Origin: Octopus sinensis
Taxonomy: Eukaryota
Direction of reading: 5' to 3'
Length of the DNA: 64,000 nt
Assembly: GCF_006345805.1 (NCBI RefSeq)
Contig: NC_043013.1
Span: forward strand, 49,414,001-49,478,000
Part shown: positions 48,801 to 51,800 of the stretch, in pieces
Position numbering within the stretch: the first letter of the stretch is position 1
Layout of the letters: the number at the start of each line of letters is the position of its first letter
Notes under the pieces: generated by a model
Database searches by the model: none
What the model was told of the DNA's origin: nothing
What the model saw: the letters and a program-made list of their open reading frames with translations, nothing else
Program-made: the position numbers and the translations under genes

Positions 48801-51800
48801 TGCCTTTAAACATGCATGCTGTGACAGAAAGTGCCAATTATGCCAAACTAGTGTGGAAGATATCATTCATCACACCAGTAGAAGCCCAAAAATATCTACA
48901 ACATACTACCTCCCTAAGCAACATGATATCATCAGCAATTTTAGTTTACAAATGCTATCCACAAGAAAGAATTGTTTTAATGGCCATACGAAAGGCACAC
49001 TAGAATCAGAGAGTATCAACATCTTTAGAAATAAAGAATTCTATGGAGGATTCCAATAAAAGTAGCAATCTGGTGTAAGCACAATGGGCTAAATATGGTT
49101 GTAAGGGATAAGAAGTAAAAATCATGCATCGTTATAGAGATCAGCTGCCCAGTAGATGTGAATACTCTTGAAAAATTCAGGAAAAGTAGAACATCTAAGG
49201 AGAACTGATGAGAAGCCTACAGCTCTTAAATCTAGGACACAGAAAGAAATACTTGGGTTCTGCAAATTAGAACAGAGCAAACTGACTCATATTCTTCAGA
49301 TACTATCTGATGTATCGCAGGTTCAAATGGTGTACCTTTACCGAACGACATTACTGGCTGTGTCCATCCACTATTTATTTGTAGTGGACCAGTCCACTAC
49401 TCATCTGGGGGCATCAACCACAATGCTATCATCAGACAGAGGAACAGTAAGAAGCTGCAAATCATTTTGGGATTCTCTATTTGAGGTCTCAGGGGGGTAC
49501 ATATGCACACAAGCACGTATGCATATGGAACACATATACATGCACACATATAAATAGTAATGAAACAAACATGTGTTTTATTGCTACATGCATACTCACA
49601 AGTGCAAGTTTATCTACATGCACACACACACACACACATGTGCACAACATGCATACATATATGCATACATCAACCAGTTCGGGAAATCATAACCTTCCCC
49701 CCCACAAAAAAAAAACTGTCTTATCTAAAGTAAAAGAACCTTGTTATTTTGTCAGGGACTGGGCTTGAATTCTACAAAGCAAAACCTTAATAAATCCCAA
49801 ATAAACATGTAAACATCTACACACACACACACACACACACACACACATATATATATATAGAGAGAGATATTACACACATACACACACACGATGTGTCTGC
49901 GACTCAATTTTGAGCAATGCCATGGTTTGACTGTTCTCATAAACCTGTGCACCAAGGATATAGCTATTCAGTCCTGCTAGAGACCGATACACTTTAATGT
50001 GGAAATGATGGGCACCTCTTACAGCAGATGTTCAGTGAGCTAAGCACCTATGCTGACACACACCTTTATTCCATCATGGAATTTTTCCTTGGGGGGTTTG
50101 CTTCCTCAGCTATGTCTAGTCATAGCATGCAACACTTAATAGAGATGTTCAGACATTCAAAATGCTGAGACATTTTTGAAGTGAGGAAAGGCCTTGCACA
50201 GGACCAATACAACTCTCTAAGCAATGTATTGCATTTGCCTAAAAAAGAAGAACTAGCGAACATCATTTGATGCAAATGAAATTACAGGTGTTACATCTGA
50301 GTTCTCCCTCTCACCTGTTGGACTGCAACTGACTCAACTGACTTCATCCACTCATTGGTAAATTGTATTGGGTTACGTGTTACCTGCAGTACTAAGGAGT
50401 GACCTGACATGCACACACACACACACCATATATGAATATATATACATACAAACATACATATATATATACATATATATACCGGAGTAAACACATAAATGTG
50501 AAACAAGGTGGAAAAAAGAGTACTCAAATACCAGTGGTAGAGTAATATGCTTTATTTAAAGCAGCAGAAAATTCAACAAAACCTGTTACTCTGAGTTTCA
50601 CGTTCCAGTTCGTCGGACAGTTTTTGCTAGAATAGAACCGATTATCGGTTCTATTCTAACTTTAAATAAAGTATACATATATATATATATATATACTTCA
50701 CGATGTGTTGCAGCTACTGTTTATAACTAGCTCTGAGATTTATTATTGCTTGTTTACACCTTTTTCAATATCAGTGTCTTTACGTCACTGAAAAAAGGAT
50801 ATATATTTGCAAAGGGAACCTACTTTTCATCGACAACTGTAACTGACACACGCTGATGACAGATCAATAACCAGAAACTTGAGTCCATGTGTATCATAGG
50901 TAGGTTAAAGACGGGAAGGATGGCTTCCCTTTGCAAATACTGATAGGGCACAGAAAGTGTGTCAATAGCCAGCTGGAGGCGTTGGCCTCCTGGGGCTACA
51001 AGCTACAGTAGCATCCACCTTAGGGGTTAGCCATATTTAAATGGTATTATACTTCACGATGTGTTGCAGCTACTGTTTATAACTCGCCCTGAGATTTATT
51101 ATATATATATATATATATATATACACACATATACACACACATATATGTATACATATATACAGACACGTGCACACACATACACACACACATATATTGTATG
51201 ATACAAATAAGAGTTTTCGTTATAACAGCAGAAATATTGGGTAAATTACCATTACAAGGTGGAAAAATTTGTCAACAACCAGCCATGGCACTCAAACCCA
51301 TATCCCTCACAGGCTGCTGGCTGTTGACAAATTTTTCTGCCTTGTGACAGTAATTTACCCAATATTTCTGCTGTTCTAATGGCAACTCTGCATTCAAAAA
51401 AATATTATATTTGTATCATACAATATACATACATACTTATATATATATATTTATATATACCGGAGTAAACACATAAATGTGAAATAAGGTGGAAAAAAGA
51501 GTACTCAAATACCAGAGGTAGAGTAATATGCTTTATTTAAAAGCAACAGAAATTTAACAAAAGCTGTTACTCGGAGTTTTAATTCCCCGTTCGGCGAACA
51601 GTTTTGTTAACACGTTCCCATTCGTCGGATAGTTTTGTTATATTTCTGCTGCTTTTAATAAAGTATATATATATATATATATATATATATATATATATAT
51701 ATATATATATAGGTCATGAGAGGTAATGGTGTTAAGGAGACCCAAAGGTGTCAGGTAATGCTGAGTAAGTGCTATGGACAAACTATAGTTAAGCTCCAGG

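What the first reader, a model, noticed from the sequence alone, without database searches (positions are those of the whole stretch)
50470..51670. Cluster of retrozyme-like repeats carrying two hammerhead families inside the PCBP intron, one on the pre-mRNA strand
Seen: a ~200-bp element occurs twice (about 50474-50675 and 51456-51665). On the minus (sense) strand the first copy folds as CTGT-CCGACGA-stem II-GAAA-CTCAGAG-TA-ACAG. The second copy has a decayed motif plus a partial repeat whose stem II reads ATG-GGAA-CGT, giving an inferred consensus ACG-GGAA-CGT (GNRA-capped). Established: minimal type I hammerheads with palindromic stem III occur in Penelope-like elements and non-LTR retrozymes and can cleave as dimers. 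Inference: two same-strand copies about 1 kb apart might form a dimeric ribozyme that cuts nascent PCBP RNA, and the CCGANGA (U4C) core may define a variant cephalopod family.
Basis: partly seen in the sequence, partly recalled or inferred. Interest (0 to 1): 0.72.

Follow-up and report, generated by a model that had tools for sequence, protein, structure and literature searches.

The report
Penelope stubs with flip-flopping hammerhead core
These are worn-out tail ends of jumping genes sitting in an intron and likely unable to cut the host RNA, but across the genome two unrelated families of such elements spread with either the textbook letter or a changed letter in the core of their predicted self-cutting RNA, which would allow a test of whether they need to cut at all.

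Summary
The sequence description is accurate; the interpretation mostly is not. The two ~200-bp repeats are separate, 5'-truncated 3' ends of a Hydra-clade Penelope-like retrotransposon. Long copies elsewhere carry a 723-aa RT/endonuclease frame with the Hydra motifs, and a near-identical hammerhead is published for Hydra-2_aMil. A third hammerhead on the opposite strand belongs to a ~352-bp non-coding, retrozyme-like family. All three local motifs are damaged relative to their families, the two same-strand copies come from different subfamilies, and the 24.4-kb PCBP intron is spliced across in contigs of 4 of 4 runs laid. Cutting of PCBP RNA is unlikely. U4C is real at subfamily level but does not define the family: 1,915 C4 against 2,806 U4 against 15 A/G4 exact motif matches. 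Older subfamilies carry C4 and the youngest has U4; the 352-bp family also has both, with C4 slightly younger. The rest of the core and the stems stayed fixed, and 5' ends of copies do not pile up at the predicted cut. U4C is known from viroid-like RNAs; my searches did not find it reported for Penelope elements. No cleavage was tested.

The parts
50479..50675 (-). Copy 1: 5'-truncated 3' end of a Hydra-clade Penelope-like element (C4/C7 subfamily); direct part about 50642-50479, preceded by an internally deleted inverted piece about 50675-50644; (TA)n on both sides
50583..50620 (-). Hammerhead motif of copy 1: U4C core, stem II with a private G-to-T change at 50607, palindromic stem III, predicted cut after 50587
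   Evidence: (about 97% of family depth in run X18 has the other letter at 50607)
50696..51102 (+). Family C: ~352-bp non-coding repeat unit plus ~55-bp repeat of its start; retrozyme-like, with tandem and inverted copies elsewhere; antisense to PCBP
50848..50890 (+). Hammerhead motif of family C (U4 subfamily); 2 of 4 stem II pairs lost, changes also in stems I and III; predicted cut after 50885
51460..51668 (-). Copy 2: 3' end of an older C4 subfamily of the same Hydra element, with inverted 5' piece and a partial duplicate of the ribozyme's 5' half (51640-51611)
51564..51601 (-). Decayed hammerhead of copy 2: C3, A6 and G12 changed, stem II broken; stem III, GUA (A17 at 51568) and the 3' strand of stem I intact
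51200..51400 (.). Unrelated ~200-bp fold-back repeat between the two copies
   Evidence: -101 kcal/mol, z -14.3
31609..56045 (-). Host intron of the PCBP gene (24.4 kb) between the EVGSIIGK exon (56069-56046) and the [11 protein letters not shown] exon (31608-31576)

Best explanation
The two repeats are independent, decayed 3' stubs of a Hydra-clade Penelope-like retrotransposon lying in (TA)n tracts of a PCBP intron, and they likely do not cut the PCBP pre-mRNA. Shown: family identity, link to the RT/endonuclease frame, two fixed 3' ends, 5' truncation with inversion, private damage to each local motif, and subfamily-wide U4 or C4. Inferred: each stub was made by target-primed reverse transcription that began about 45 or 105 nt downstream of the ribozyme and stopped early. 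Inferred: in the source elements the motif is a slow, dimer- or RT-assisted hammerhead whose fold stayed under selection but whose cutting is not rate-limiting for insertion, so the weaker U4C core was tolerated through several waves of copying. Inferred: C4 forms a CpG, and the youngest wave regained U4 by ordinary CpG deamination in a source copy. The plus-strand 352-bp element is inferred to be a non-autonomous retrozyme-like family moved by Penelope machinery, in which U4 and C4 subfamilies arose independently.
For: Family: 559 first-look candidates, 40 scored, at 91-99% identity apart from the self-match. 3' ends: 66 of 72 distinct ends are followed by TA repeats, 38 at the short end and 34 at the long end. 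ORF link: 723-aa frame upstream of the motif on the same strand in L062, and direct repeats flanking an ORF in L061; RWK, DKT, CxCx5C, CxxC and CxH present, the Hydra features in PMC8557442 section 11. Its File S2 lists Hydra-2_aMil with the same stem I, stem III and GUA, and File S1 lists Hydra-1_Obim. C4 motifs lie in RT-bearing loci, e.g. L074, L075, L077, L079-L081, L087. RT tree of 25 rows: the 11 U4 rows form one clade (99/97) nested among C4 rows, midpoint root. Copy divergence downstream of the motif: U4 12/1309 (0.9%), C4/U7 26/1214 (2.1%), C4/C7 29/1027 (2.8%), copy-2 group 114/1215 (9.4%, mixed). In the copy-2 group (1,191 matches) the first 100 listed are 68 CCG, 18 CTG, 13 CCA, 1 CTA by hand count, the symmetry expected of CpG decay from C4. 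Lineage-shared RT changes are 17 synonymous to 10 non-synonymous against 37 to 89 for private ones (p=0.002). No pile-up of 5' ends at the cut. A Poseidon-clade hammerhead cuts only with protein and is dispensable for insertion in vitro (PMC11167929, passages). Spliced contigs join the two flanking exons in 4 of 4 runs laid.
Against: No cleavage was measured. The RT tree has no outgroup, and three old relatives (L232, L238, L239) read U4 while two (L230, L231) read C4, so the deepest state is unresolved. Purifying selection on the RT in the C4 era alone is not significant (8:6 against 37:89, p=0.066). U4C need not be weak: one paper says it considerably lowers activity in vitro (PMC3088659), another that it did not affect self-cleavage of a PLMVd variant (PMC9608096). 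Folding programs also fail to give the hammerhead fold for intact family members, so low predicted pairing in the window is weak evidence. Spliced mRNA does not exclude cutting of a minority of transcripts. No ORF was found linked to the copy-2 group beyond a divergent fragment in L143.
Confidence: 0.8

Rival explanations
1. One reading: copies 1 and 2 form a dimeric ribozyme in nascent PCBP RNA and cut it. Formally only a half-active dimer is possible, in which copy 1's core cuts copy 2's intact GUA after 51568.
For: Both are on the pre-mRNA strand about 980 nt apart; their stem III segments are complementary at 8 of 9 positions and copy 2's substrate strand is intact. Dimer cleavage is established for this ribozyme type (PMC4209133, parts 1-2 of 4).
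Against: Copy 1 has U4C plus a broken stem II pair; copy 2's core is dead. Predicted cross-copy pairing: stem III 0.02, stem I 0.0001. Even intact dimers of this type cut poorly in vitro. The copies are independent insertions of different age. The intron is spliced in 4 of 4 runs.
Confidence: 0.05
2. The C4 motif is catalytically dead and the fold is kept for a non-catalytic role, such as RT binding or positioning of the start of reverse transcription.
For: C4 persisted over several waves; stem II is only 2-3 bp; no 5'-end footprint at the cut; catalytic mutants still insert in vitro in another clade.
Against: C3, G5, A6, G8, A9, G12, A13, A14 and the cut-site triplet stayed fixed between the oldest and youngest sampled subfamilies although G5 and G8 sat in mutable CpGs; U4C hammerheads occur in replicating viroid-like RNAs.
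Confidence: 0.2
3. C4 was positively selected as an attenuator that limits premature cutting, and U4 and C4 subfamilies differ in fitness or in their effect on host transcripts.
For: The same change is fixed in subfamilies of two unrelated families, while A or G at this position is only background (15 matches). C4 can form a competing CCG/CGG hairpin with stem II (predicted for L079).
Against: The direction appears opposite in the two families; T-to-C and CpG-to-TpG are the commonest changes; n is two; tolerance explains the pattern without selection.
Confidence: 0.15
4. If the stubs affect PCBP at all, it is through the element's AATAAA acting as a cryptic intronic poly(A) signal or through double-stranded RNA, not through catalysis.
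For: AATAAA on the pre-mRNA strand at 51537 and 50556 in both stubs; a strong fold-back lies between them.
Against: No 3'-end data; AATAAA is common in this AT-rich intron (two more within 1.3 kb); full splicing is seen.
Confidence: 0.08

Closest known systems
Hydra clade of C-terminal-endonuclease Penelope-like elements, esp. Hydra-2_aMil and Hydra-1_Obim (PMC8557442; seen: passages, section 11, supplement part 2 of 59 and searches in it)
   Same: Single RT-EN frame with RWK, DKT, CxCx5C, CxxC and CxH; (TA)n targets; 3' hammerhead; Hydra-2_aMil has the same stem I, stem III and GUA; 5'-truncated inverted copies.
   Different: All Hydra hammerheads listed in File S2 have U4; here several subfamilies carry C4, and stem II is only 2-3 bp. 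The published octopus member Hydra-1_Obim has a different ribozyme and is a separate family (compared by eye only).
Minimal type I hammerheads of metazoan PLEs (PMC4209133; seen: parts 1-2 of 4)
   Same: Type I, 4-bp inner stem I, palindromic stem III suited to dimers, thousands of dispersed single copies, opposite-strand pairs 100-700 bp apart, a family-level core variant in one genome (U3-A8).
   Different: Stem II is shorter than the 7-8 bp described there and lacks G10.1-C11.1; the core variant is U4C.
Non-LTR retrozymes (PMC7229834, passages; bioRxiv 10.64898/2026.07.22.740005, part 1 of 5)
   Same: Family C: ~352-bp non-coding unit with a type I hammerhead and palindromic stem III, occurring as monomers and short tandems.
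   Different: Mostly dispersed monomers with PLE-type inversions and two 3' ends; circular RNA not shown; has a C4 subfamily. Family A is not a retrozyme.
Natural U4C (CCGA) hammerheads of PLMVd, CtaHVd-LR1, zeta viruses and betaviroid-like RNAs (PMC3088659 passages and section 8; PMC9608096 passage; bioRxiv 10.64898/2026.09.16.752053 passages)
   Same: Same core substitution in replicating elements.
   Different: Those are viroid-like RNA replicons (type III where stated); here it is a minimal type I motif fixed in genomic retroelement subfamilies of thousands of copies.
Poseidon element PAc of Anolis (PMC11167929, passages)
   Same: pLTR hammerhead; two fixed 3' ends (tail signature).
   Different: Different clade; canonical core; its protein-assisted cleavage was measured, nothing was measured here.

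Membership tests
Hydra-clade PLE | Single ORF with RT and C-terminal GIY-YIG-type endonuclease | tested here: met
   723-aa frame in L062. No Pfam or PDB hit for it; full-length homologues at 43-58%, one carrying PF01541 (that this is GIY-YIG is recalled); visibly collinear with published Hydra proteins.
Hydra-clade PLE | RWK and DKT motifs, CxCx5C linker, CxxC and CxH, no CCHH | tested here: met
   Motif scan; criteria. The CCHH check was a crude pattern.
Hydra-clade PLE | Insertion into (TA)n, pLTR, 5' truncation with inversion | tested here: met
   66 of 72 3' ends followed by TA; inverted partners; direct repeats around the ORF in L061.
Hydra-clade PLE | Placement inside the Hydra clade in an RT phylogeny | not tested
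   Published reference proteins were not held as sequences; only a within-family tree was built.
Hydra-clade PLE | Canonical hammerhead near the 3' end | tested here: met
   Met by the U4 subfamily (2,806 matches); the subfamilies in this window carry U4C instead.
Type I hammerhead ribozyme | Core CUGANGA, GAAA and UH in type I order with three stems | tested here: inconclusive
   Met in the U4 subfamily; copy 1 differs at U4 and one stem II pair; copy 2 fails. No Rfam hit.
Type I hammerhead ribozyme | Conservation or covariation of stems | tested here: inconclusive
   Inner stems are invariant between subfamilies, so there is no two-sided covariation; 4 of 5 changes fall in 8 free positions of 38 (post hoc p=0.004). 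No covariance model was built.
Type I hammerhead ribozyme | Site-specific self-cleavage | not testable with these tools
   Only contigs were available; no genomic 5'-end footprint.
Non-LTR retrozyme (family A) | Non-coding 170-400-nt unit in tandem, no ORF | tested here: not met
   Linked to a long ORF; copies share the 3' end and differ in 5' truncation.
Non-LTR retrozyme (family C) | Non-coding unit of 170-400 nt with type I hammerhead, in tandem | tested here: met
   352-bp spacing in L113/L114 and tandem units in L182; no shared extension or linked Hydra ORF in 50 loci.
Non-LTR retrozyme (family C) | Expressed as circular RNA | not testable with these tools
   No raw RNA reads offered.

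The most novel reading that the evidence does not exclude
Hammerhead position 4 is a reversible, CpG-mutable tuning site in Penelope-type elements: source copies with C4 keep a slower but working ribozyme, both states have founded waves of thousands of insertions in two unrelated families of one genome, and the U4 and C4 sister subfamilies form a natural experiment on whether these ribozymes cut host pre-mRNA and whether cutting matters for transposition.
Probability: 0.3. Interest if true: 0.55.

Novelty: new variant of a known kind. Interest (0 to 1): 0.33.

Why it matters
The role of hammerheads in Penelope-like elements is open: they are nearly universal, cut poorly, and were dispensable in the one reconstituted system. 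Sister subfamilies that differ at one core base, each with thousands of copies of different age, let cleavage rate be compared with transposition success and with strand bias inside genes. Searches that require CUGA would also miss about half of this family's motifs. For PCBP itself the finding is probably unimportant.

Tried and rejected
Rfam scan: no hammerhead hit, only simple-repeat noise. Pfam and PDB sequence searches of the 723-aa frame: none. RNA evidence: no RNA holder listed as such and only contigs, so ends and levels could not be read; the laid contigs mix thousands of paralogous copies and did not show whether this insertion exists in other organisms. Cut-site footprint: none in family A (737 matches; of the first 100 listed, 54 truncated by hand count, 15 at positions -2 to 0 against 12.5 expected over 13 positions; scripted on 30 loci, 5 of 16) or family C (68 matches, about 37 truncated by hand count, 2 at the cut). 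U4 as mere copy-level CpG decay: rejected for the young family A subfamily (96 of the first 100 U4 matches have A at 11.1 against 3 of 100 C4 matches, hand counts) and for family C (55 CTG against 2 CCA). C4 as a private mutation: rejected. Naiad membership: rejected, endonuclease is C-terminal. RNA-editing origin of C4: no support, lineage changes show no A-to-G excess (small numbers). Loose search for further C4 families: 237 matches against 50 in the control; of 10 fetched, the clear relatives were old family A copies, and no new C4 family was established. One search's divergence figures used a wrong start column and were replaced, where a labelling slip put 14 U4 rows under 'other'. The paper on PLE hammerhead dimers (PMC5785218) is not held and may list U4C variants; supplements of PMC4209133 were not read.

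Full report
Observation. The two repeats lie at 50479-50675 and 51460-51668 and are 89.6% identical over 144 nt. On the minus strand copy 1 has the parts of a type I hammerhead with CCGACGA in place of CUGANGA and a predicted cut after 50587. A monomer descriptor matches once in the window and in none of 100 shuffles. Copy 2 and its partial repeat are as described. A third motif with CTGATGA lies on the plus strand at 50853. The host gene is PCBP on the minus strand. Contigs of 4 of 4 runs laid (four studies; RNA is a guess by the tool) are spliced at the downstream exons and continue from 31610 into the exon at 56046-56069, so the region is inside a 24.4-kb intron that is spliced out.

What the repeats are. 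The genome search gave 559 first-look candidates; the 40 scored are 91-99% identical apart from the self-match, nearly all share the 3' end, differ at the 5' end and often have an inverted partner. Of 72 distinct 3' ends in 70 motif-picked loci, 38 stop at a short end and 34 at a long end, and 66 are followed by TA repeats. Long copies carry a 723-aa frame upstream of the motif on the same strand, and in L061 the motif flanks an ORF as a direct repeat. The frame has RWK, DKT, CxCx5C, CxxC and CxH, the features given for the Hydra clade (PMC8557442 section 11). That paper's supplement lists Hydra-2_aMil with the same stem I, stem III and GUA, and an octopus member Hydra-1_Obim with a different ribozyme. 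So the repeats are pLTR stubs of a Hydra-clade element, not retrozyme monomers. That the host is an octopus-like cephalopod is my inference from the repeat landscape and this relative; no call names it.

The U4C core. One 33-place pattern gives 1,915 matches with C4, 2,806 with U4 and 15 with A or G; reversed controls give 0. Inverted pairs count twice and decayed copies are missed. The states are subfamilies: by hand count 96 of the first 100 U4 matches have A at 11.1 against 3 of the first 100 C4 matches. Copy 2's group adds 1,191 matches; its first 100 are 68 CCG, 18 CTG, 13 CCA and 1 CTA, as expected for CpG decay from C4. C4 motifs sit in RT-bearing loci. In an RT tree of 25 rows (1 of 26 skipped as too short; 4 rows without a readable motif) the 11 U4 rows form one clade (99/97) nested among C4 rows, with a midpoint root only. 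Divergence of copies downstream of the motif gives the same order: U4 0.9%, C4/U7 2.1%, C4/C7 2.8%, copy-2 group 9.4% (median 7.5%; mixed, with one misaligned row); 53 rows with the long end from 100 loci were used. Two relatives at 77-80% identity read C4 and three others read U4, so the deepest state is open. Lineage-shared RT changes are enriched for synonymous ones (17:10 against 37:89, p=0.002; C4 era alone p=0.066). Between the oldest and youngest sampled subfamilies 5 of 38 ribozyme positions changed: position 4 and four free positions (7, loop II, 11.1, loop III); the other core bases and the inner stems did not (post hoc p=0.004).

The second family. The plus-strand element is a ~352-bp unit with 2,059 first-look candidates, tandem and inverted copies, two 3' ends and no linked ORF in 50 loci. 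Its hammerhead has a 4-bp stem II and a perfectly palindromic stem III. A strict pattern gives 146 matches; the first 100 are 43 CCG, 55 CTG and 2 CCA by hand count. A tree of 47 rows built only on sequence downstream of the ribozyme splits them (98/92, bootstrap not fully settled) into 20 rows with 1 C4 and 27 rows with 2 U4; C4 copies are slightly less diverged (3.2% against 4.2%, p=0.045). The same substitution therefore marks a subfamily in two unrelated families, apparently in opposite directions.

State of the local copies. Copy 1 has a private change in stem II at 50607. Copy 2 has lost C3, A6, G12 and stem II. The family C copy is antisense to PCBP and has lost 2 of 4 stem II pairs. 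Copies 1 and 2 belong to different subfamilies and are separated by two other repeats. A dimer could only use copy 1's core on copy 2's site; predicted pairing in the 1.2-kb context is 0.02 for the cross stem III and 0.0001 for the cross stem I, and the monomer fold of copy 1 is 7 kcal/mol above the minimum. This is weak evidence, because intact members also do not fold as hammerheads in this model.

Does the family ribozyme cut? If it cut the RT template, copies should begin at the cut. They do not: 15 of 54 truncated family A copies begin at -2 to 0 against 12.5 expected, and 2 of about 37 family C copies begin at the cut (mostly hand counts). This fits PMC11167929, where a PLE hammerhead cut only with protein, was not needed for insertion in vitro and left no read ends at the cut, and PMC4209133, where dimers cut poorly.

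Mechanism. Shown: identity, ORF link, target preference, subfamily structure, local decay. Inferred: target-primed reverse transcription from uncut RNA; a slow, assisted ribozyme under selection in source copies; tolerance of U4C; return to U4 by CpG deamination. Untested: any cleavage.

Prior knowledge. U4C is a known natural variant in PLMVd, CtaHVd-LR1, zeta viruses and betaviroid-like RNAs, with conflicting statements on its effect. Searches for hammerhead with Penelope and octopus, U4C, CCGA-type words, and octopus with hammerhead ribozyme found no report of it in PLEs or retrozymes; a 2026 octopus repeat annotation does not contain the word ribozyme in its main text (PMC13282606, passages). 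The library is incomplete and the most relevant paper on PLE hammerhead variants was not held. Earlier AI notes of this scan reach similar readings and are not independent support.

Verdict. Observation confirmed; interpretation partly supported. A new variant of a known kind, interest 0.33. The PCBP-cutting reading has about 5% odds; the value lies in the U4/C4 sister subfamilies as a test system.

Noticed in passing
window 51200-51400: Near-perfect fold-back repeat (-101 kcal/mol, z -14.3) between the two stubs, also present in other organisms' runs; it would be long double-stranded RNA in the pre-mRNA.
   Followed up: partly
window 51861-52100 and at least ten other places (e.g. 16211-16429, 17363-17581, 19836-20064, 42712-42956, 62908-63116): High-copy ~240-bp repeat, 77-94% identical; it looks like a tRNA-derived SINE (label recalled, not tested).
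   Followed up: no
L061, L062, L053 (G000:C1): Very young U4 copies with RT stretches within about 0.5% of each other and an uninterrupted 723-aa frame in L062, suggesting recent activity of this Hydra family.
   Followed up: partly
L062 minus strand, reference positions about 795-1078 and 3400-3720: A ~270-bp segment of the element's long 3' region recurs in inverted orientation upstream of the ORF in many long copies; possibly part of the inverted pLTR or a nested repeat.
   Followed up: no
families A and C, core and 5' strand of stem II: In both families stem II begins with CGG, so C4 creates a perfect CCG/CGG hairpin competing with stem II; predicted for L079 but not for L075 or L174.
   Followed up: partly
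listing, e.g. G000:C3:80706203 and C3:80707377: Further small hammerhead-like families with canonical cores appear in the genome (237 matches against 50 in the control).
   Followed up: no
window 29606 and 30268 (+): Two identical loose hammerhead-like descriptor hits 662 bp apart with 1-bp stem II; they point to a local duplication and are probably not ribozymes.
   Followed up: no
L069:6220-6373 (about 3.7 kb before the window start): Another short family A fragment without the ribozyme.
   Followed up: no
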